The notes beneath the pieces are model-generated. The model saw nothing but the letters and a program-made list of their open reading frames with translations. It did no database searches and was not told the DNA's origin. Positions 586 to 8,714 of a stretch of DNA of 64,000 bases are shown one piece after another. This DNA comes from an uncultured Verrucomicrobiae bacterium (GTDB lineage: Bacteria > Verrucomicrobiota > Verrucomicrobiia > Chthoniobacterales > UBA10450), in NCBI GenBank assembly GCA_963702135.1, contig OY969715.1, positions 1,539,187 through 1,603,186 of the forward strand. Direction: 5' to 3'. Made by a program: the position numbers and the translations under genes. The number at the start of each line of letters is the position of its first letter. The first letter of the stretch is position 1.

Positions 586-3500
586 ATGAAAAGATTTCTT
601 AAGACATTCGCGCCCGCTCTCCTGCTCTGTTTCTTTCTTCCCCGAGTTTCCCCGGGCGAAGGAGAGCCCGGAAATAACAATCCAACCGGAGTGACGGGCG
701 AGTACAATGGCAGCGTTACCACCGGCGGATCGTACGATCCTTTCACAGGCAACGCGAAGCGCTTTATCGACGACCTGACGGTGACCGGTAGTGTTGGGGC
801 CTATCCGCTGAAGTGGACGCGGGTGCTGAACACGCGTGGCATCAGTGGGCCGTTCGGAAACGGTGGCGGCTGGAAGCATAGCTATCAGTGGGGGCTTTCC
901 ATTCTGCCACCCTCGCCCCAGTGTGGACCAGAGCTGCCGGCTGCCGTCGTCTCCTATCCCGACGGCAGGAAGATGACGTTTCGCCACGAGGACAACCCCT
1001 CCAGGTTTGAAGACGAGAGCGGGGCCGAGCCCGGCGATAGGCTTATCCAGATCGGAACAAGCACCGACTACGACTTCAAGCTGAAGGACGGTGGCAGGGT
1101 GGAGTTTCGGACCGTCTATGGGCGACCTCATTTCCCCAAATACATAGTGGACCCGTACGGCCAGAGAACGACGCTGGAGTATATTAATAACGGCTCTGGC
1201 GCCCCCACGTTGTGGAAGATTATCGAGCCGGCTGGGCGCTACCTGAAGATCACTTACAAAACATATCTTCCTGAGCCTCCGGCCTATCCGGGTTCCGTAG
1301 AGATCATAGATTATGTCGAGGCGTATGACGGACCCCAAAGCCATCTGATGGAGACCGTGCATTACGATTACCAGCGGGTAAATGCCTCTGCGGAAGTGCA
1401 TGTCAGATTCTACAATCTGATCCGTGCGCGCTATGACGACGGCCAACAGGGTGTCTATGGTTACCTTGGTCCAGCTCGGACCAATCCGGGCGATCCCGGG
1501 ACTCTGGCGCCCGGTAACGTCGAGACTTGTAATGACGTGCGCTTCGCCGGGGCGATGAAGAAAATCGAGTACGAATATGTTCCCGCGACAAATAGTCAGG
1601 TAAATCCCGTCGCTCGTGGCCAGATTCGAGCGGAAAGGAACGCGACGACCCATCAGCTCATATCGAGCGTGGATTATCCGCCAATGGTCCCTGCCAGCTT
1701 TACCCGAACCGAGACGCGCGCGGATGGCGCAACGCGCAAATTCAAATATTTCAATTACAGCTTCGAGCTTGAAAGCTACACGGATTTTGCCTACCCCGGG
1801 CAACCGTACCACACCACTATGTTCAGTTATCCGCCGGGCGCGCCTGGCAACCATTACTACAGAGCGGAGAGAAACGCACGTCCCCAGGGTTACACTACGA
1901 AAACCGAAAAGGAGTTAAACATCGGCGCGATCATGGCGGTAATTCATCCCAATGGCTCCAGGATCCAATACCACTATACCGATGACAACAACCCGTATTA
2001 TGTCGACTTTAAGACCGACGAAAATAACAAAACAACCTATTACGACCGATATTGTGTCGGAGGTAATCCGTGTGACCCCGTGAACGCGAACCGCATTTGG
2101 AAGATTCGATACCCAGATGGCGGTTACGAAACGTTTACCTATAACCAGTTTGGCCAGCCTCTGGAACATCGCATGACCAGTGGGGGCACGGAAAAGTTTA
2201 CCTATAGTCCCCGTGGCTTGAAAGAAACCTATACGCCACCCGGCACTCTGAGTGATCCCAATCCCGCGGATAATCCGACCATGTATTTTTATTACGACGC
2301 CAGCAACAGTCCGGGCCATCGCATCGATCGCCTTTACTACGCGCTCGATCCGCTCCTGCACGCGACTTTCTACGACTACAACCAGCGGGGGCAGGTGACC
2401 CGGTTGACCCATCACGATACCACCTTTACTCAAAGCGACTATTACCCCGATGCCACATTGCACATCAGCACCGATGAGTTGGGGCACCCCACGACCTACA
2501 CGTATGACGAATATGGGCGGATCCTTTCGGTCGAAAATGCCGTCCACAAGGTTGCCGCCACAAGTTATGACCCGGATCCGAGCCCGACGTCGGATCGCTC
2601 ACTGAGCCATACCACCGCCTCGGTTTACCAGACCACGTCGCCGACTGGAAAAACCATTCGGCACCAATACGACGCGAACTTCCGGCTCATCCAGACGACG
2701 GAGGCGCCGGGGACGGGCGATGAAGCCATCACGACTTTTACCTACGATGAAGTCGGCAACCAAATCACCGTCACTCGGCCAAACGGACAACCGTCTGAGC
2801 CGATTCCCGCGCACACCACCACCGGATACGATGATCGCAATCGGCGGGTTAGCCTCAGCGACGAACTGGGGCATACGACCACCTGGGAATACGATGACGC
2901 CGGCAACATGAAGAAGGAGACGCGAGCGGATTTGAAGTTTCGCACGTGGGATGTGTACGACGCCATGAACCGGGCCAAGCACATCACCGGTTTTCTGCAA
3001 GAGCCAACGAGCTACGAGTACGACCTGGCCGGTAATCTGCGGAAGACGATCTTTAACAATTCAGCCTACGAAACGACCTACGATAAGATGAATCGAAAGG
3101 AAAACGCGATCTATCCCCTTGCCGGAAGCGGGAGCGAAGTCTGGCGCTACGACGCCGCTGGAAGCCTGAAATTTTACAAGAACACGGCTGGTCAATACAA
3201 ACACTTCGGTTACGACACGCGGAACCGCCAAACTCACTCCTATTGGAATACTTCGGAAACAAGCAGCAATGTGGACACCTCGGTCGGCGCCGAGACGGTA
3301 ACAGTGTTCGACCCCGCCAATCGCGTAACCAGCGTCGCGAGCGGGCCCACGGTTGTGGCTTATGGTTATGACGACGCGAATCGCAAGATCTGGGAAGACC
3401 AGACCTTGAACGGCAGCACGCGGCGCGTCGAAACATTCCCCGATGATGACGGGAACCGCGCGATCCTGGCGGTAGCGGGAGCTTATGCGCTCACCTACGG

Positions 3501-5358
3501 CTACACCCAGCGGCAGCAGCTCTGGCATATCAACAAAACGGGCGCAGGCCAGTTCTTCGAGTACACCTACGACAAGAATGGCAACCTTAAGAAACGGCAG
3601 AACACATTGCAGGGCGGCGACTCCACCATTTTCACCTATGACCGGTCGGATCGGGTGACGTTGTGCACACAGACGGGGGCGAATGACGCGGCTTTTGCCC
3701 GGAGCAATTACAACGATTACGATCTGGTGGACAATCTGCAATCGGTGACGCGTGAAGAGGATGGAAACAAGGGAGAACGCTTCACCTACGACGATGCGAA
3801 TCAGTTGAAAACGGTTTCGTATAAAGCAGACATCACCCCGCATGGCCCCGAGCAGCCGGGTTCGGTCCCCGGGGAAGGGGGAGTAATCGTCACCGTGCCC
3901 GAGGACTCAGAGCAGAAAGCGCTGGCGGAACTGGTGGCGGACCCGGACCGCGAACCGCTCGCGGAGCGAGGAGGAGGCGGTGGTGGTGAAATCGACGCGA
4001 TGAGCGGCCCGCGCACGGTGACGTACGTGAACGATGCGATCAACCGGCTTAGCATGGAGGACAGCGGGGTGGTGACCAATTATACCCCCAATGGCCTGAA
4101 CCAGTATACGGCGGTAAGCGGCCACACCGCACCGCTTTACGATACGAAATTCAATCTATCGGGCTACGACGGCTGGATCTATATGTATGATGCCGACAAG
4201 CGGCTCGTTTCGGCCAGCAGCGCCGCGGGCGGGGGCCATAGCGCGCAGTTCGTCTATGACGGGCTGGGGCGCTGCGTGAAGCGAACGATCGACGGCGTCT
4301 CAACGGTGTACACGTACGATGAGTGGAAGACGGTCGTGGAGTGGAGCGACACGGGAGCGTTTGTGGCCTGGAATCTTTACGGGCCGGGAGCGGACGAGAT
4401 ACTGGTTCGCTACCAACCGAACACGGGCGGCTACGTCCACTATCACCTCGACGCGATGGGGAATGTGCAGTTCCTGCTCAGCGGCGAGCTGAATCTCGGC
4501 CTTGAGAAGTATACTTACGATGCGTTCGGGCAGCCTCGGGTCACAGGTTGGAACGGCGATGTGCGCACGATCAGCCGTTATGGCAACCGGTTCCTGTTTA
4601 CTGGTCGAGAATATCTCTATACGCTCGGTATTTACGACTATCGGCACCGCGTTTATCATCCCGGGCTGGGGCGTTTTATCCAGACCGACCCTATTGGCTT
4701 CGGCGACGACCCTATGAATTTCTACCGCTATTGCCGTAACGATCCCGTCAATCACACTGACCCAATGGGCACTTATGCGCAGGGGGCCGGGTGGAACAAA
4801 GACAGCTGGGAAAAGTTTCAATCTGCCCAGGAAAACGCGGCCAAAGTTACCGGAGGCGCAGCTGAGCGTATTGCAAGCGCCTTGAAAAATGGTGGCAAAG
4901 AGTTGGAGTCTCTAAAGAGGGATTTTGAGAGAGTCTATGGACCTGGTTCAGCAACGGAGAAAAACCTCCAGGAAGTAGGCACCACCCTTAAGGGTATGGA
5001 GACCGCCCTTCGTGACAATGGCCAGCTAGGATACTATGCAAATGCTGCAAACAAGGCGGAGACTATTGCCCAAGGTCTCTCAAAAGACACCGCGGCCTGG
5101 ACTGTCCCCTCAGATAGGCATTCACTCTATGTTAACACTGATCACGAAAATTTTGGGAAACCTTCGCTTGTGGGCACTGTGATTCACGAGAGCAGCCACA
5201 ATTTGGGATTGATCGATGCCAAGCGTGATAAGGGAGGCGTTAAGGCTTATAGGCACGGGGACCTAACCCAGCGGGCATATTTCAAACAGTTGCCGTTCAA
5301 AGAGCCCGAAAAAGCATTGCGAAATGCTGATACCTTGACTAGCTTTATAGTCCCATGA
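586..5358 (+). CDS. Rhs/YD-repeat polymorphic toxin (1590 aa) with Sec signal peptide and variable C-terminal tip
   Basis: N-terminus MKRFLKTFAPALLLCFFLPRVSPG. Many YD repeats (YDPYGQRTTLEY, YDEYGRILSV, YDEVGNQITV, YDDAGNMKKE, YDLAGNLRKT, YDKNGNLKKR, YDGLGRCVKR, YDAFGQPRV). Rhs core end RFLFTGREYLYTLGIYDYRHRVYHPGLGRFIQTDPIGF...YRYCRNDPVNHTDPMG. Confidence 0.95.
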   Translation: MKRFLKTFAPALLLCFFLPRVSPGEGEPGNNNPTGVTGEYNGSVTTGGSYDPFTGNAKRFIDDLTVTGSVGAYPLKWTRVLNTRGISGPFGNGGGWKHSYQWGLSILPPSPQCGPELPAAVVSYPDGRKMTFRHEDNPSRFEDESGAEPGDRLIQIGTSTDYDFKLKDGGRVEFRTVYGRPHFPKYIVDPYGQRTTLEYINNGSGAPTLWKIIEPAGRYLKITYKTYLPEPPAYPGSVEIIDYVEAYDGPQSHLMETVHYDYQRVNASAEVHVRFYNLIRARYDDGQQGVYGYLGPARTNPGDPGTLAPGNVETCNDVRFAGAMKKIEYEYVPATNSQVNPVARGQIRAERNATTHQLISSVDYPPMVPASFTRTETRADGATRKFKYFNYSFELESYTDFAYPGQPYHTTMFSYPPGAPGNHYYRAERNARPQGYTTKTEKELNIGAIMAVIHPNGSRIQYHYTDDNNPYYVDFKTDENNKTTYYDRYCVGGNPCDPVNANRIWKIRYPDGGYETFTYNQFGQPLEHRMTSGGTEKFTYSPRGLKETYTPPGTLSDPNPADNPTMYFYYDASNSPGHRIDRLYYALDPLLHATFYDYNQRGQVTRLTHHDTTFTQSDYYPDATLHISTDELGHPTTYTYDEYGRILSVENAVHKVAATSYDPDPSPTSDRSLSHTTASVYQTTSPTGKTIRHQYDANFRLIQTTEAPGTGDEAITTFTYDEVGNQITVTRPNGQPSEPIPAHTTTGYDDRNRRVSLSDELGHTTTWEYDDAGNMKKETRADLKFRTWDVYDAMNRAKHITGFLQEPTSYEYDLAGNLRKTIFNNSAYETTYDKMNRKENAIYPLAGSGSEVWRYDAAGSLKFYKNTAGQYKHFGYDTRNRQTHSYWNTSETSSNVDTSVGAETVTVFDPANRVTSVASGPTVVAYGYDDANRKIWEDQTLNGSTRRVETFPDDDGNRAILAVAGAYALTYGYTQRQQLWHINKTGAGQFFEYTYDKNGNLKKRQNTLQGGDSTIFTYDRSDRVTLCTQTGANDAAFARSNYNDYDLVDNLQSVTREEDGNKGERFTYDDANQLKTVSYKADITPHGPEQPGSVPGEGGVIVTVPEDSEQKALAELVADPDREPLAERGGGGGGEIDAMSGPRTVTYVNDAINRLSMEDSGVVTNYTPNGLNQYTAVSGHTAPLYDTKFNLSGYDGWIYMYDADKRLVSASSAAGGGHSAQFVYDGLGRCVKRTIDGVSTVYTYDEWKTVVEWSDTGAFVAWNLYGPGADEILVRYQPNTGGYVHYHLDAMGNVQFLLSGELNLGLEKYTYDAFGQPRVTGWNGDVRTISRYGNRFLFTGREYLYTLGIYDYRHRVYHPGLGRFIQTDPIGFGDDPMNFYRYCRNDPVNHTDPMGTYAQGAGWNKDSWEKFQSAQENAAKVTGGAAERIASALKNGGKELESLKRDFERVYGPGSATEKNLQEVGTTLKGMETALRDNGQLGYYANAANKAETIAQGLSKDTAAWTVPSDRHSLYVNTDHENFGKPSLVGTVIHESSHNLGLIDAKRDKGGVKAYRHGDLTQRAYFKQLPFKEPEKALRNADTLTSFIVP
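4771..5355 (+). other. Rhs C-terminal toxin tip, putative HExxH zinc metallopeptidase (aspzincin/M35-like)
   Basis: 195 aa after the DPMG boundary (4759-4770). HESSH at 5185-5199 is followed by NLGLID. NADTLTSF at 5323-5346 resembles the NADSY-type C-terminal motif of aspzincins (from memory). GC is visibly lower than in the Rhs core. Confidence 0.55.
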
Positions 5359-5801
5359 GGATGCTTTGTCTTCTGTTGGTTGCGGCACTGGCGCTGACGG
5401 CGAACGGTGATAATGCGCCCTCTTACGACCTTCCTGTCGGGAATCCTCCTCCCCGGTACCGGCTCGAAATTAAGGATAATCCGGCCACCGAGCGTTTTGA
5501 ACTAACGCTGCGTTCGCTTGATCATCGTATGATCTGTTTAGCTCGGGCGAGTTGGCCGAATCAAGATGGTCATCTCGATTGGGGCAGCCAGTGGGTAAGA
5601 GTTCAATCTAAGAACAGGTCTTATCCAGCACGCGATTGGAATTTTGGATCCTGTGAGGGCGACGATTGTACTATTCGGGTACCGGCCCAGGGCAAGCTTA
5701 TTGGTTTTATCGGGTATTCCGAGTTTGGCGACCCGAGGGAGATAGCGGCTCTGCCAAAGCGGCGAGTGCACTTCGATCCATTGGTGTTCGTTTGCCCGTA
5801 A
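5355..5801 (+). CDS. candidate cognate immunity protein, secreted/periplasmic (148 aa)
   Basis: Its start overlaps the rhs stop (ATGA). Signal peptide MRMLCLLLVAALALTANG. Four Cys in the mature part. This is the typical position of an Rhs immunity gene. Confidence 0.55.
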   Translation: MRMLCLLLVAALALTANGDNAPSYDLPVGNPPPRYRLEIKDNPATERFELTLRSLDHRMICLARASWPNQDGHLDWGSQWVRVQSKNRSYPARDWNFGSCEGDDCTIRVPAQGKLIGFIGYSEFGDPREIAALPKRRVHFDPLVFVCP

Positions 5802-5810
5802 GGAGGGAAG

Positions 5811-5937
5811 CAGAAGGGGTCAGTCTTAGAATCTCGGCAAATATTCTGGACTTGATGGCTGCGGCCGGCCCAGAATCTAGCAATGCCTCGCAAAGCGCGA
5901 GTCGAGTTCCCCGGAGCGGTTTACCATTTGCTGGATC
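5811..5937 (+). repeat. direct repeat copy A: REP-like 26-nt motif plus the first 18 codons of a RAYT/IS200-like transposase gene
   Basis: About 95% identical to 7626-7753. Contains AAGGGGTCAGTCTTAGAATCTCGGCA (5814-5839). ATG at 5883 encodes MPRKARVEFPGAVYHLLD, after which homology ends. Confidence 0.9.
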
Positions 5938-5991
5938 CAAGGTTGGAGATAGAACTGACGGCATCAATTGAAAGCCAATTGTCATGAAATC

Positions 5992-6017
5992 TGCCGAGAT
6001 TCTAAGACTGACCCCTT
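5992..6017 (-). repeat. inverted copy of the 26-nt REP-like motif
   Basis: TGCCGAGATTCTAAGACTGACCCCTT is the exact reverse complement of 5814-5839. It directly abuts the orphan rhs fragment. Confidence 0.9.
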
Positions 6018-6036
6018 TTGGCTGCTCCTCGGCAGC

Positions 6037-6436
6037 GGACCGCACCTACGTCCACGGGGGGCGAGTTGACGAAATCGTGGCGAGCCACGCCGACGGTGTC
6101 TGGTATAATCACCATTACGATGGGCAGGGTAACTGCATTTTATTGAGCACGGTTAGCGACGGGTTACAGGAGCAGTACGATTACGACGCATTCGGCTTCC
6201 CGTATTTCTACAACGCGAGCGGAGGCCCTCTCTCTGCGCCCCCGCGCACGCGCTTCCTCTTCACGGGCCGGGAGTGGCTGGGCGACCTGCGGATCTACGA
6301 TTACCGGAACCGGCAATATCAGCCGGAGCTAGGCCGCTTCCTCCAGCCTGATCCAAAGGAGTTTTCCGCAGGCGATTACAATCTCTATCGCTATTGCCAC
6401 AATGATGCGGTCAATAAGAGTGACCCGATGGGTTGA
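6037..6436 (+). pseudogene. orphan Rhs core C-terminal fragment (no N-terminus or shell)
   Basis: RTYVHGGRVDEIV...YDYDAFGFPYF...RFLFTGREWLGDLRIYDYRNRQYQPELGRFLQPDP...YRYCHNDAVNKSDPMG aligns with the end of the main Rhs core. The ORF-track start at 5984 is derived from repeat sequence. The frame stops right after DPMG. Confidence 0.85.
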
Positions 6437-6891
6437 TCGATGTTAAAATCGACCCCAAATTGGATAAGTTGAGTGTGCAAGCGTCCCTCAATTCTTTGAA
6501 AGAGGCTGCGAATGGAGCTCCGGCCGGAGTATCACAAGCGATACAGGAGAAGGATGGCAAACTTTCACTGGCTTCTACATATGGAAAAAATGAGATTGTA
6601 GTGGAGAAGGAGATGATCGGTGGCAGACTGCAAAAAGTCACCACGCTTAAGGAATCAGCTAGAAGTGACGAAGGACACAAAGTTGTCGCCGTTGGCCATG
6701 TTCACCAGGATTCCAGCGTCCACGCTGGACCGGGATTCACTAAGACTGATTACGCGACCGCTCAAGGGTCGGAAGGTCATCCGGGCCAGCCAGTATATAA
6801 AGTCAACGAGTCGAACCCTTCAGTAGTAATTCGCCTTACGCCCCAAGTTGACTACCATGACGCGCCGGTGCCGAGGGTGGTCTCGCCTTAG
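6433..6891 (+). CDS. orphan Rhs toxin tip (152 aa), out of frame with the core fragment by 1 nt
   Basis: TTG at 6433 shares one T with the last Gly codon of the core fragment. Restoring one T gives DPMG-LIDVKID, the canonical DPxGL. Contains GHVHQDSSVHAGPGFTKTDY...PVYKV, reminiscent of DUF4329/JAB-like tips (from memory). Low GC. Confidence 0.6.
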   Translation: MIDVKIDPKLDKLSVQASLNSLKEAANGAPAGVSQAIQEKDGKLSLASTYGKNEIVVEKEMIGGRLQKVTTLKESARSDEGHKVVAVGHVHQDSSVHAGPGFTKTDYATAQGSEGHPGQPVYKVNESNPSVVIRLTPQVDYHDAPVPRVVSP

Positions 6892-6929
6892 GAAAACATG
6901 GGGATGTCTATTTTTCGCACGCCTAGATT

Positions 6930-7601
6930 ATGAAAATCATTCCTACCGCGGTAATCGTGGCACTTTTTTGTCAACAAGCCCTATTTGTTACCTTCTGTCG
7001 TGCATCTCCCGTGGACCATCTTGTTCCGTTGGAAACAAGTTATGGGTTGCTCTTGAAATACGAAATACTATCGCGCGAAAAACTGCTGGTTACTTCCGGG
7101 GAGGTCGCCAGGTTTGTCTCTTTGCCTGGGTCGGCGAGCGTTGAAACTTCCGTCTCCGTCTACAAAATGCCTGGCAAGAGAGGGTCGTTACCGGGTGATT
7201 ATTGGGTTACTGTTACGCAAGCAAGCAAGAGCCTGTGGGAAGCAGCGCAGGCGGAGTCTAACCCTAAGGCGATAAGAATCGAACGCTTGGACGCGCCACT
7301 CCCTCAGGTTACGGCGCAAACCGTTCATGACGCATGGATCAGCACGTTGATCAGAGTTAAACCCACTCCAAGGTCAGAGGAAGTTCTCGTAGACAGCACT
7401 CAGGAGATCTTTTCGGCTGCAAAATCTGAAGGTTCCATCATTGAGGGCCAAGCTCCTTCGTCTCCCGGCCCCAAGACTAAAGCGCTAATCGAGGTCGCGT
7501 TTTCATTGATCGAGTATTGCGACAAGCCGCCCGCACTCCGAAGGAAATTAGCGCGTGACATTCGGAGCCGCGCGATGAAACTGATCGAACACGTGGACTG
7601 A
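6930..7601 (+). CDS. candidate immunity protein of the orphan tip, secreted (223 aa)
   Basis: Signal-like N-terminus MKIIPTAVIVALFCQQALFVTFCRASP. Lies directly downstream of the orphan tip. Low GC. No known motif. Confidence 0.5.
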   Translation: MKIIPTAVIVALFCQQALFVTFCRASPVDHLVPLETSYGLLLKYEILSREKLLVTSGEVARFVSLPGSASVETSVSVYKMPGKRGSLPGDYWVTVTQASKSLWEAAQAESNPKAIRIERLDAPLPQVTAQTVHDAWISTLIRVKPTPRSEEVLVDSTQEIFSAAKSEGSIIEGQAPSSPGPKTKALIEVAFSLIEYCDKPPALRRKLARDIRSRAMKLIEHVD

Positions 7602-7625
7602 CGTGAGGGACAAAAAGAAGAAGGT

Positions 7626-7753
7626 CAGAAGGGGTCAGTCTTAGAATCTCGGCAAATTTACTTGACTTGATGGCTGCGGCCGGCCCAGAATCTAGCAATG
7701 CCTCGCAAAGCGCGAGTCGAGTTCCCCCGGAGCGGTTTACCATTTGCTGGATC
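7626..7753 (+). repeat. direct repeat copy B: REP-like motif plus RAYT 5' end
   Basis: Matches 5811-5937. The 26-nt motif lies at 7629-7654. It continues into the RAYT-like coding sequence. Confidence 0.9.
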
Positions 7754-8046
7754 GCGGTGATCGGCAGGAGGCAATTTTCCGCGATGACGCGGATCGGGAG
7801 CAGTTTCTGGCCACGCTCGGGGAGGTGTGCGCGCGCACGGGTTGGCGTGTGCACGCGTTCGTCTTAATGACGAATCATTACCATCTCCAGGTGGAAACAC
7901 CGGAGCCCAACCTTGTGGCAGGCATGCGCTGGTTTCAGACGACCTATACGATCCGGTTCAATCGACGGCACCGCGTCACGGGTCATTTATTCCAAGGGCG
8001 ATACAAATCGGTCACGAGCACGAGCAAGAGCTTGGCAGGGAATTAG
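7698..8046 (+). pseudogene. IS200/RAYT-type (HUH Y1) transposase, frameshifted and 3'-truncated
   Basis: MPRKARVEFP is followed by an extra C in a C-run (about 7726-7730) compared with copy A. The shifted frame reads LDRGDRQEAIFRDDADREQFLATLGEVCARTGWRVHAFVLMTNHYHLQVETPEPNLVAGMRWFQTTYTIRFNRRHRVTGHLFQGRYKSV (HUH = HYH). Homology ends before the catalytic Tyr region. Confidence 0.85.
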
Positions 8047-8714
8047 GGAGCGGCGCGGTCGTAGACTTCCACCAGGCCCACGCCAGTGCCGCCGTTTGAT
8101 CCCGCAAGCAGCACTGTGTAAAGACCGGGCGGCTGCATCGTGGCTACGGCAGACTCGAGTGGGTTGCTAGGCGCAAGACCCCCCGTGGTCAGTTCGGCGG
8201 TTTGCATCGGATTATCCTGCCAATCGTTATTCGCGACCAGGAGCGCTCCGTCGCCATTGCGCAGTTCCAGAGTCGGATCCGTCAGCGCATCCGGCACGCC
8301 CGTCGCCGAAAGGCTGGGTCCGAGGCCGCGCACGACGATACTGTCCTGCCCGCTCGCCCCGCCGAGAATGAAGCCCGCGATGACAATATCGTTACTGGTT
8401 CCGACAAAAGCGCGCGTGCTAATATTCGCCAACTTTCCTTGGGCCGGGTCCAGATCGTAGATTTCCACCAAGGCGACTCCTGAGGTGTCGCCACTGCCCT
8501 TTACGACCGCGGTGTACGCGCCCGGAGCGAGGTTGGCGTAGATGGCCGATTCCAGATTATTCGCGGGAGCAATGCCAGTGCCCAGAATCGCGGTTTCCTG
8601 GGATGAGTTATCGCGCCAGTTATCGTTCGTGATCGTGCTGAATCCATCGGGGAAATGCAGTTCCATGACCGGGTCAGCCAACACATTGGGAACGCCGGGG
8701 CTCAACGAAGGCAT
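8043..8714 (-). pseudogene. 5'-truncated fragment of a secreted repeat-domain protein (two ANISTR...NDxW beta-sandwich-type units)
   Basis: Two tandem units (GVPNVLADPVMELHF...NDNWRDN...VALVEIYD and GVPDALTDPTLELRN...NNDWQDN...VGLVEVYD). The ORF begins mid-unit (PSLSPGVPN). Its stop overlaps the stop of the RAYT remnant. Confidence 0.55.

What the first reader, a model, noticed from the sequence alone, without database searches (positions are those of the whole stretch)
5984..7601. Displaced orphan rhs module whose toxin tip is frameshifted exactly at the DPxGL boundary
Downstream of the main rhs-immunity pair lies a second module with three parts. The first is a 130-aa Rhs core end (...RFLFTGREWLGDLRIYDYRNRQYQPELGRFLQPDP...YRYCHNDAVNKSDPMG). 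The second is a 152-aa tip. The third is a secreted 223-aa immunity-like ORF. The core frame stops right after DPMG (ggt tga). The tip frame starts at TTG, sharing one T with the Gly codon. Inserting a single T would read DPMG-LIDVKID, restoring the canonical DPxGL. The orphan is therefore either silenced by a 1-nt deletion, translated on its own from TTG, or needs a frameshift. The tip has a G-H-V-H...F-T-K-T-D...P-V-Y-K pattern reminiscent of DUF4329/JAB-like Rhs-associated domains, but that comparison is from memory only.
Basis: partly seen in the sequence, partly recalled or inferred. Interest (0 to 1): 0.7.

Follow-up and report, generated by a model that had tools for sequence, protein, structure and literature searches.

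The report
Frameshifted spare Rhs toxin cassette
This is a spare ("orphan") copy of a bacterial Rhs toxin tip with its protective immunity gene, in which loss of one base has cut the toxin off from its carrier fragment; it is an ordinary stage in the life of such cassettes, although the toxin family itself is uncharacterised.

Summary
Downstream of a full rhs-immunity pair lie three parts:
- a 5'-truncated Rhs core end (TIGR03696, E 1.2e-16);
- a 152-codon tip ORF;
- a 223-codon exported partner ORF.

The core frame ends GGT-TGA and the tip frame starts at the overlapping TTG. Ten distinct related loci, including full-length 1592- and 1679-aa Rhs genes, read DPxG-LID... in one frame, so the window has lost one base (GGN TTG to GG TTG). 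An independent public assembly of run ERR11593400 carries the same deletion.

The tip keeps every family-invariant residue. Its dN/dS against the nearest relatives is 0.16-0.17, the same as between intact copies, so the lesion is very recent or not disabling. No programmed-frameshift signal is present.

The tip belongs to an unannotated family with a JAB/MPN-like signature (E, HxH, S/T..D). It is not DUF4329 by HMM. The partner ORF co-occurs with it in every locus.

The orphan core is only 45% identical to the resident rhs. The cassette is bracketed by two copies of a REP/Y1-transposase element, so it was not displaced from the resident gene.

Verdict: a recently broken, silent orphan Rhs cassette with retained immunity. 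It is a new member of a known kind, of modest interest.

The parts
586..5358 (+). Main rhs gene (1590 aa; context). It has an N-terminal signal peptide, YD repeats, an Rhs core at aa 1311-1395, and a zincin-like tip with HExxH.
   Evidence: TIGR03696 E 7e-20, YD_repeat E 5e-19, Aspzincin_M35 E 1e-5 (below the Pfam cut-off).
5355..5801 (+). Immunity-like gene of the main rhs (148 aa, with signal peptide). Its start overlaps the rhs stop as ATGA.
   Evidence: No family hit.
5811..6020 (+). A 210-nt internally deleted copy of a REP/Y1-transposase element. It has 32-nt inverted ends (5811-5842 and 5989-6020) and the first 55 nt of the transposase ORF (ATG 5883). It forms the 5' boundary of the orphan.
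   Evidence: The RNA fold is -101.7 kcal/mol, z -6.3. The intact element is seen in L019.
5984..6436 (+). ORF holding the orphan Rhs core fragment. The first ~15 codons derive from the repeat element, and Rhs-core homology runs 6029-6433. It ends AVNKSDPMG-stop, with the P of PxxxxDPxGL replaced by A.
6430..6436 (+). Junction GGGTTGA. One base is missing between GG(N) and TTG, and the TGA stop of the core frame overlaps the TTG of the tip frame.
   Evidence: Relatives read GGC CTG, GGA CTG, GGG CTG, GGA TTA, GGC TTG, GGT CTT or GGA TTG at this point.
6433..6891 (+). Tip: a 152-codon toxin domain of an unannotated, JAB/MPN-like Rhs C-terminal family. All family-invariant residues are kept.
   Evidence: searches (H89, H91, P137 and Q138 invariant; D3, E74, G88, D106 and S127 near-invariant; pLDDT 91.4), and (dN/dS).
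6930..7601 (+). Immunity-like partner (223 aa): a signal peptide followed by a new alpha/beta fold.
   Evidence: It lies directly downstream of the tip in every locus that extends past the tip's end (L002, L003, L004, L005, L007, L008, L010 and L019). dN/dS is 0.17-0.23. The model has pLDDT 82.8 and there is no PDB fold match.
7626..8046 (+). Second, truncated copy of the REP/Y1-transposase element. The REP end is at 7626-7659 and the transposase ATG at 7698. The gene is frameshifted (C5 here against C4 in the first copy) and 3'-truncated. The stretch 7626-7753 repeats 5811-5937.
   Evidence: (Y1_Tnp E 4e-9; REP_Tyr_transpos E 3e-7, below cut-off).

Best explanation
This is a silent orphan Rhs C-terminal cassette: a core stub, a toxin tip and an immunity gene. 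A real and evolutionarily very recent loss of one base in the short G/T run between the Gly and Leu codons of DPxGL has put the toxin out of frame with the core stub.

The cassette could not be deployed before the deletion either. The stub has no N-terminal shell or export signal. Its core is too different from the resident rhs genes for easy homologous fusion. Its only start codon is buried in a very stable hairpin of a repeat element. The deletion therefore cost nothing and is simply the first visible step of decay.

The downstream immunity gene, which has its own start and signal peptide, is the part most likely still in use. It would protect against neighbours that deliver this toxin, which related Verrucomicrobiota carry on full-length Rhs proteins.

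Shown: the anatomy, the deletion relative to ten related loci, the toxin-partner linkage, and purifying selection on the tip and partner up to near the present. Inferred: that the tip is not translated, that the partner is an immunity protein and is expressed, and that the toxin acts outside the cytoplasm (because the partner is exported).
For: - Module anatomy and core match.
- In-frame junctions: found in 10 distinct DNA loci, namely full-length Rhs genes L004/L016 (1592 aa) and L005 (1679 aa), the orphans L002, L007/L013, L008/L009, L012, L014, L017-20 and L021, and L003, whose upstream end is cut off by the contig edge. Many protein representatives are also in frame. Only the window is shifted.
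- Same deletion in an independent assembly of raw reads: L001 ends exactly where a k=31 graph would break at the repeat.
- Assembly quality: every gene checked elsewhere in the window is intact, with full-length domain matches.
- Recency: tip dN/dS is 0.156 against L007 and 0.171 against L012, compared with 0.11-0.18 among intact copies. Window-private codon changes are 17 synonymous against 3 conservative replacements. All family-invariant residues are kept.
- Not deployable: the orphan core is 45% identical to the main core. ATG 5984 sits in a -101.7 kcal/mol hairpin. The P of PxxxxDPxGL is replaced by A.
- Partner gene: conserved next to the tip, with dN/dS 0.17-0.23.
- Literature: orphan Rhs and CDI toxins are normally not synthesised, whereas orphan immunity is (PMC3967940, PMC3150448).
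Against: - The tip shows no decay at all beyond the single deletion. That is equally what a base-calling error or a still-translated tip would give.
- The sequencing platform of the run behind L001 is unknown to me, so a systematic read error is not strictly excluded.
- Expression of the immunity gene is inferred, not shown.
- dS between the window and most relatives is high (0.55-0.8) or saturated, so the bound on the age of the lesion is rough.
Confidence: 0.62

Rival explanations
1. The tip is still made as a free-standing protein. The deletion created a TTGA stop/start overlap, the same geometry as the ATGA overlaps that couple toxin and immunity genes in these loci. Ribosomes would initiate or re-initiate at TTG 6433 and produce Met-IDVKID..., which is almost exactly the toxin that autoproteolysis after DPxGL would release.
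For: - The TTGA overlap is in the sequence.
- ATGA overlaps occur between rhs and rhsI in the window and in L002 and L008.
- This genome hardly uses Shine-Dalgarno sequences: 1 of 24 genes has one. The lack of one is therefore not an objection.
- The tip shows undiminished purifying selection and an intact catalytic signature.
- Rhs cleavage occurs after the residue at the L position of DPxGL (PMC8765631).
Against: - The upstream ORF's ATG 5984 is sequestered in a very stable hairpin, so there may be few terminating ribosomes to re-initiate.
- TTG itself lies in a G+C-rich local stem.
- A toxin without the Rhs shell and without a signal peptide has no delivery route, and its exported immunity partner would not meet it.
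- No relative has this arrangement.
- The NCBI/ENA annotation of the genome does not call this ORF.
Confidence: 0.12
2. The deletion is not in the organism. It is a consensus or base-calling error in a long-read assembly, and the cassette is really in frame. It would then be an ordinary intact orphan.
For: - The window belongs to a single 4.18-Mb contig, which implies long reads.
- The lesion is a one-base length change in a homopolymer context next to a GATC site.
- A second homopolymer length difference (C4 against C5) lies 1.3 kb away in the repeated element.
- The tip shows no other sign of decay.
Against: - An independent k-mer assembly of public run ERR11593400 gives the identical 1337 bp. 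Its ends are those expected from exact repeats, which argues for accurate reads.
- The runs involved are only 2-3 bases long.
- Other genes checked in the window are intact.
- The C4/C5 difference sits in a transposase remnant that is also 3'-truncated, so real decay explains it.
Confidence: 0.12
3. A programmed -1 ribosomal frameshift at AUG-GGU-UGA joins the core stub and the tip into one protein.
For: A -1 slip of the P-site tRNA-Gly from GGU to GGG at a slowly decoded UGA would give exactly DPMG-LIDVK (sequence).
Against: - There is no X XXY YYZ heptamer.
- There is no significant downstream structure (z -0.8 to -1.7), and the site itself lies inside the only local stem.
- None of the 10 related loci has the shift, so nothing is conserved.
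- The fused product would still lack the shell and an export signal.
Confidence: 0.03

Closest known systems
Orphan rhs-CT/rhsI modules of Enterobacteria (for example Salmonella Typhimurium STM0292 and Dickeya dadantii 3937; PMC3150448, PMC3967940)
   Same: - The gene fragment lies downstream of a main rhs/rhsI pair and keeps part of the conserved core up to (P)xxxxDPxGL.
- It is followed by a variable toxin tip and a cognate immunity gene.
- The same tip sits on full-length Rhs proteins in other strains.
- It has no export signal of its own.
   Different: - The host is a Verrucomicrobiota-type genome with Sec-signal Rhs proteins rather than T6SS-linked ones.
- The orphan core belongs to a different lineage from the resident rhs, so the recombination route shown in Salmonella is unlikely here.
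- The tip is additionally out of frame.
- The cassette is bounded by REP/Y1-transposase element copies.
Tox-JAB-1 with Imm65 (Zhang et al. 2012, PMC3482391)
   Same: - The toxin domain is RHS-linked and has a JAB-type signature (E, HxH, S, D).
- The toxin is exported by the Sec route.
- The immunity protein has a signal peptide and a conserved Cys; Imm65 is a lipoprotein.
   Different: - No Pfam model matched the tip or the partner.
- Tox-JAB-1 was described only in Bacteroidetes.
- The NxxxE motif is not seen, and the conserved Glu lies only 15 residues before HxH.
- A canonical lipobox is present in only some partners (for example L008, IASC).
Tox-JAB-2 = Pfam DUF4329 (PF14220)
   Same: It is an Rhs-associated JAB-like tip with an H-x-H ... 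F-S-x-x-D pattern. A true DUF4329 orphan lies in the same array as this tip in L002.
   Different: - There was no HMM hit in 17 members.
- hhalign probability is 1.4%.
- The immunity family is different (Imm-NTF2-2 against this exported protein).
JAB/MPN (JAMM) metalloproteases (Rpn11, CSN5, AF2198, bacterial Ubl deubiquitinase 8tyx_B)
   Same: These account for nearly all of the top 23 Foldseek matches. The family shares an invariant HxH and a near-invariant (S/T)xxD and Glu.
   Different: The matches are weak (E 0.02-0.4, TM 0.30-0.44). The spacing is HxH-x11-(S/T)xxD, with a nearby Glu instead of the canonical spacing (canonical spacing from memory). Metal binding is untested.
REP-associated tyrosine transposases (RAYT) / IS200-type Y1 transposases flanked by inverted REP sequences
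   Same: A Y1_Tnp-domain gene lies between two inverted 24-32-nt repeats (intact in L019). A short derivative retains both ends.
   Different: The NCBIfam REP_Tyr_transpos score is below cut-off (30 against 80 bits). Only three repeat copies are in this window, so genome-wide REP behaviour is unknown.

Membership tests
Orphan rhs-CT/rhsI module | Lies downstream of a full-length rhs gene and its immunity gene | tested here: met
   The main rhs is at 586-5358 with rhsI at 5355-5801. The orphan starts about 230 nt later.
Orphan rhs-CT/rhsI module | 5'-truncated fragment of the conserved Rhs core ending in the PxxxxDPxGL motif | tested here: met
   TIGR03696 E 1.2e-16, covering profile positions 2-75 of 76. 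The fragment is 61-73% identical to the core ends of full-length Rhs genes. The motif is damaged: it reads A-VNKS-DPMG, and the L lies in another frame.
Orphan rhs-CT/rhsI module | [quoted passage not shown] | tested here: met
   L004/L016 (1592 aa), L005 (1679 aa), P0013 (1413 aa) and P0122 (1488 aa).
Orphan rhs-CT/rhsI module | A cognate immunity gene lies immediately downstream and neutralises the toxin | tested here: inconclusive
   Linkage holds in every locus that extends past the tip's end, and the gene is under purifying selection. Neutralisation cannot be tested here.
Orphan rhs-CT/rhsI module | Shares enough core sequence with the main rhs to be fused to it by recombination | tested here: not met
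   45% protein identity. The best DNA stretch is 79% over 53 nt, and the longest exact run I counted by eye in that pair is about 10 nt. This is common in orphans but is not a strict requirement of the class (PMC3150448 describes orphans unrelated to the main gene).
JAB/MPN (JAMM) superfamily | MPN/deaminase-like fold | tested here: inconclusive
   The model has pLDDT 91.4. Nearly all of the top 23 Foldseek PDB matches are JAB/MPN proteins, but with E 0.02-0.4 and TM 0.30-0.44.
JAB/MPN (JAMM) superfamily | Glu ... HxH ... S-x-x-D metal and catalytic signature | tested here: met
   H89 and H91 are invariant, and E74 and D106 are at least 90% conserved in 30 sequences, with S/T at position 103. 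The spacing is atypical.
Pfam DUF4329 (Tox-JAB-2) | Match to the family profile | tested here: not met
   No hit at E<=10 in 7 members and none at E<=0.01 in 10 more. hhalign against a DUF4329 tip gave probability 1.4%.
Programmed -1 ribosomal frameshift | Slippery heptamer, a downstream stimulatory structure, and conservation of the shift in relatives | tested here: not met
   There is no X XXY YYZ heptamer. Fold z-scores are -0.8 to -1.7. All 10 related junctions are in frame.
Translational coupling by NTGA stop/start overlap | Overlapping stop and start codons, with a translated upstream ORF | tested here: inconclusive
   The TTGA overlap is present. The upstream ORF's start is buried in a -101.7 kcal/mol hairpin. 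Translation cannot be tested here.
REP/RAYT-type Y1 transposase element | Y1 transposase gene flanked by inverted REP-like repeats | tested here: met
   L019 has REP(+) at 1978, a 332-aa Y1 gene at 2045-3043 and REP(-) at 3051. Window remnants match Y1_Tnp at E 4e-9. The NCBIfam RAYT model score is below its cut-off.

The most novel reading that the evidence does not exclude
The one-base loss did not kill the toxin. Instead it converted the cassette into a two-cistron unit, a core stub followed by a free JAB-like toxin, coupled by a TTGA stop/start overlap. The cell would then make a stand-alone toxin whose N-terminus mimics the autoproteolytically released Rhs tip. This would be a route by which polymorphic-toxin tips become independent genes.
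Probability: 0.1. Interest if true: 0.55.

Novelty: new member of a known kind. Interest (0 to 1): 0.3.

Why it matters
Mostly it closes the question: the oddity is a real-looking, very recent one-base lesion in a spare toxin cassette, not a recoding device.

Three things have some value:
- It gives a dated snapshot of the first step of orphan decay. The toxin is still perfect and only the reading frame is lost, while the immunity gene stays intact. This fits the idea that orphan arrays are kept mainly as immunity repertoires.
- It defines an unannotated Rhs tip family with a JAB-like catalytic signature and an exported partner of unknown fold. About 40 representatives at 50% identity cover the tip, some on Rhs proteins of 1400-1680 aa. 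The family is common in soil Verrucomicrobiota, and the tip ORF is missing from the deposited annotation of this genome.
- The cassette is repeatedly found next to a REP/Y1-transposase element, which could bear on how such cassettes move.

Tried and rejected
- **Family searches.** Pfam and NCBIfam scans of the tip and of both immunity-like ORFs gave nothing meaningful.
- **DUF4329.** Rejected by HMM and by hhalign.
- **PDB sequence search.** A search with the family profile matched only the Rhs core-end columns, never the tip.
- **Partner fold.** Foldseek of the partner model gave only noise, with TM <= 0.17.
- **Programmed frameshift.** No slippery site, no significant structure and no conservation.
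- **Promoter and terminator scan of 5300-8200.** Counts were at background level.
- **Junction scan.** An exact-pattern scan of JGI metagenomes for either allele of the junction (GACCCGATGG N0-3 TGATCGATGTTAAAAT) gave 0 hits. No second sample of this strain and no in-frame allele of it was found.
- **Look-ups.** P0162 (a second main-type rhs of the same genome) and P0159 were not on record, so the rest of the genome could not be inspected.
- **Literature.** A search for the run accession gave nothing, so the sequencing platform stays unknown.
- **Flank synteny.** There is none between the window and L003-L006 outside the rhs module, so the ancestral arrangement could not be reconstructed.
- **'Displaced from the resident rhs'.** Rejected because the two cores are only 45% identical.
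Full report
**1. The observation**

The sequence is as described. A 1590-aa rhs gene (586-5358) is followed by a 148-aa exported ORF (5355-5801, ATGA overlap). About 230 nt later come three ORFs on the same strand:
- 5984-6436 (150 aa), ending ...YRYCHNDAVNKSDPMG-TGA;
- 6433-6891 (152 aa), starting at TTG;
- 6930-7601 (223 aa), with a signal-peptide-like N-terminus.

The stop TGA (6434-6436) and the TTG (6433-6435) overlap, and T6433 is the third base of the Gly codon.

The first ORF matches the NCBIfam RHS repeat-associated core domain TIGR03696 at E 1.2e-16. The match runs to the last but one position of the profile, so the ORF ends exactly where Rhs cores end. Pfam did not detect it. Only two Rhs core ends are present in the 64-kb window: this one and that of the main gene.

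**2. A one-base loss relative to every relative**

A protein search with the tip found short proteins that read through the boundary in one frame, such as ...NRSDPFGLIDREID.... Fetching DNA from genomes and metagenomes gave ten distinct loci with a readable junction:
- full-length Rhs genes L004/L016 (1592 aa, a Verrucomicrobia MAG) and L005 (1679 aa);
- orphans L002, L007/L013, L008/L009, L012, L014, L017-L020 and L021;
- L003, which is cut off by the contig edge.

All ten are in frame. Their junction codons are GGC CTG, GGA CTG, GGG CTG, GGA TTA, GGC TTG, GGT CTT or GGA TTG, followed by ATC GA. The window reads GG- TTG ATC GAT. It has therefore lost the third base of the Gly codon (or one T), a contraction inside a short G/T run. 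More distant family members also carry DPxGL directly before the domain.

**3. Is the deletion real?**

The exact 152-aa ORF exists in a Logan assembly of public run ERR11593400. That 1337-bp contig (L001) is 100% identical to window 6319-7655, including GGGTTGATCG. Its right end falls 30 nt into a 32-nt exact repeat, which is where a k=31 graph must break. This suggests clean reads.

The window is part of a 4,177,484-bp contig deposited in NCBI/ENA, hence a long-read assembly. I could not establish the platform of the run. Elsewhere in the window, long ORFs are intact, and the suspicious overlapping ORF pairs that I checked carry full-length domain matches, so indel errors are not common here. 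I put the chance of an artefact at roughly one in eight.

**4. How old is the lesion?**

- The tip keeps every residue that is invariant or nearly so in a 30-sequence family alignment: D3, E74, G88, H89, H91, D106, S127, P137 and Q138.
- Pairwise dN/dS of the tip is 0.156 against L007 and 0.171 against L012. Among in-frame copies it is 0.11-0.18.
- At codons where the three closest relatives with DNA then in hand agree and the window differs, there are 17 synonymous changes against 3 conservative replacements (V38I, F51Y, T145A).

Nearly all of this lineage's own divergence thus happened under purifying selection. The frameshift is very young, occupying a small fraction of the branch at most, or it does not abolish function. 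The partner ORF is also constrained (dN/dS 0.17-0.23).

**5. What the parts are**

*Tip.* A full HMMER search of 1.84 billion representatives with the family profile gave 3953 hits. Most match only the 40 core-end columns, but about 40 representatives cover the tip itself, some within Rhs proteins of 1400-1500 aa. None of 17 members has any Pfam match in the tip, and no solved structure matches it by sequence. The AlphaFold model is confident (pLDDT 91.4, pTM 0.83). Nearly all of its best PDB fold matches are JAB/MPN proteins (CSN6, a bacterial Ubl deubiquitinase, Rpn11, CSN5 and AF2198), followed by cytidine deaminases. The scores are weak: E 0.02-0.4 and TM 0.30-0.44. Together with the conserved E...HxH...(S/T)xxD pattern, this makes a divergent JAB-like metal hydrolase the best reading.

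Zhang et al. 2012 (PMC3482391) describe two RHS-linked JAB toxin clades. Tox-JAB-2 is DUF4329. Tox-JAB-1 has as its immunity protein, Imm65, a secreted lipoprotein. The present family is not DUF4329 by HMM or by hhalign. It resembles the Tox-JAB-1/Imm65 situation in having an exported partner with a conserved Cys.

*Partner.* Homologues of the 223-aa ORF lie directly after the tip in every locus that extends past the tip's end. Its model (pLDDT 82.8) has no fold relative in the PDB. An exported immunity protein implies that the toxin acts outside the cytoplasm. This is inference.

**6. Not displaced from the resident gene**

The orphan core (...GRFLQPDPKEF...) is 45% identical to the main core (...GRFIQTDPIGF...). 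The best DNA match is 79% over 53 nt. A second main-type rhs of the same genome (P0162) has the same main-type core.

The nearest tips sit on either core type. L012 and L014 have the orphan type, while L007 and L008 have the main type, with the switch about 50 nt before the junction. Tips plus about 17 codons of core have therefore been exchanged repeatedly.

The window's core stub also carries changes at otherwise conserved positions. A replaces the P of PxxxxDPxGL, Q replaces M, and RTR replaces GNR. The PxxxxDPxGL motif is required for autoproteolysis, and cleavage follows the residue at the L position (PMC8765631).

**7. The boundaries are a repeat element**

A 127-nt direct repeat (5811-5937 and 7626-7753, differing by one C) brackets the cassette. 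A 32-nt piece of it recurs inverted at 5989-6020, 9 nt before Rhs homology begins.

The repeat holds the upstream region and the first 18 codons of a Y1 (IS200/RAYT-like) transposase. The intact element is visible in L019: repeat(+), a 332-aa transposase gene, repeat(-). There it is inserted into the 3' end of the partner gene.

The window thus has two copies. One is a 210-nt internally deleted copy (5811-6020), which folds into a -101.7 kcal/mol hairpin (z -6.3) that buries ATG 5984. The other is a truncated, frameshifted copy (7626-8046). The same repeat lies just downstream of this tip-partner pair in L004/L016, L014 and L017-L020.

**8. Mechanism and rivals**

*Best explanation (0.62).* This is a silent orphan cassette that has just suffered its first inactivating mutation. 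The toxin is not made, and the partner gene is the useful part. This matches what is known of orphan modules, where toxin fragments lack initiation and export signals, are expressed only after fusion to a main gene, and orphan immunity is expressed (PMC3967940, PMC3150448).

*Stand-alone translation from TTG (0.12).* This cannot be excluded. The deletion creates a TTGA overlap like the ATGA overlaps used in these loci. The genome hardly uses Shine-Dalgarno sequences (1 of 24 genes). The tip also looks fully functional. Against it, the upstream start is sequestered, there is no delivery route, and the partner would be in another compartment.

*Assembly or base-calling error (0.12).* See section 3.

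*Programmed -1 frameshift (0.03).* There is no slippery heptamer, no significant structure and no conservation.

**9. Novelty and score**

Orphan Rhs cassettes, their recombination and their decay are well described. A frameshifted one is a new member of a known kind. The placement of the lesion exactly at the domain boundary is best seen as one event in a short homopolymer that happened to be noticed. The modest interest lies in the uncharacterised JAB-like tip family with its exported partner, the demonstrably recent date of the lesion, and the recurrent neighbourhood of a REP/Y1-transposase element. Interest 0.3.

Noticed in passing
window 5811-6020 and 7626-8046; L019 1978-3074; L014, L017-L020, L004/L016: A REP/Y1-transposase (IS200/RAYT-like) element with 24-32-nt inverted ends lies immediately downstream of this tip-partner pair in at least five distinct loci, whose tips are only 58-84% identical. 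In the window, two copies in direct orientation bracket the orphan cassette, and one abuts its 5' truncation point. In L019 the element has clipped the partner gene's 3' end. This could mean target preference, or a role in moving or truncating Rhs cassettes.
   Followed up: partly
window 7698-8046 compared with 5883-5937: The transposase remnant of the second element copy is frameshifted by an extra C (C5 here, C4 in the first copy, whose frame reads MPRKARVEFPGAVYHLLD). It also stops after about 100 codons, against 332 aa for the intact gene in L019. This is a second homopolymer length change within 1.3 kb of the rhs junction.
   Followed up: partly
window 6404-6433: The orphan core reads NDAVNKSDPMG where all relatives have NDP(V/I)N..DPxG. 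The first P of the autoproteolysis motif PxxxxDPxGL is replaced by A. Q replaces a conserved M (RNRQYQPELG) and RTR replaces GNR before FLFTGRE. This suggests relaxed constraint on the core stub while the tip stays constrained.
   Followed up: partly
window 586-5801 and 103-561; L008 1345-6936: The main Rhs has a Sec-type signal peptide rather than PAAR/VgrG features, a zincin-like HExxH tip (Aspzincin_M35 E 1e-5, below cut-off) and an exported 148-aa partner. A secreted 152-aa ORF just upstream (103-561) is 55% identical to the ORF upstream of the related main rhs in L008, so it may be a conserved accessory gene.
   Followed up: partly
L002 1-5232 (ENA ERZ1758386) and L008 6600-10700: Relatives carry arrays of orphan modules: an M91 peptidase tip, an unknown tip, this JAB-like tip and a DUF4329 tip in L002, and two orphans in L008. 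In L002 most start at the same conserved Met of the core (MYQPELGRFLQPDP...), which gene callers take as a start codon. The window has Q at that position.
   Followed up: no
L006 10001-10320 and L023 6001-6305: Downstream of an Rhs gene with a different tip, only the C-terminal third of this tip family survives, with no core and no N-terminal half. This is a later stage of decay of the same cassette type.
   Followed up: no
same genome, outside the window (protein P0162): A second main-type rhs gene (1585 aa, over 90% identical to the window's main Rhs up to the core end) with yet another tip is encoded elsewhere on the same 4.18-Mb contig. Its locus could not be retrieved.
   Followed up: partly
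window 6433-6891: The 152-aa tip ORF is present in the Logan gene calls but not among the proteins deposited with the NCBI/ENA genome record. Both the 150-aa core stub and the 223-aa partner are deposited. The toxin domain is therefore invisible in the public annotation.
   Followed up: no
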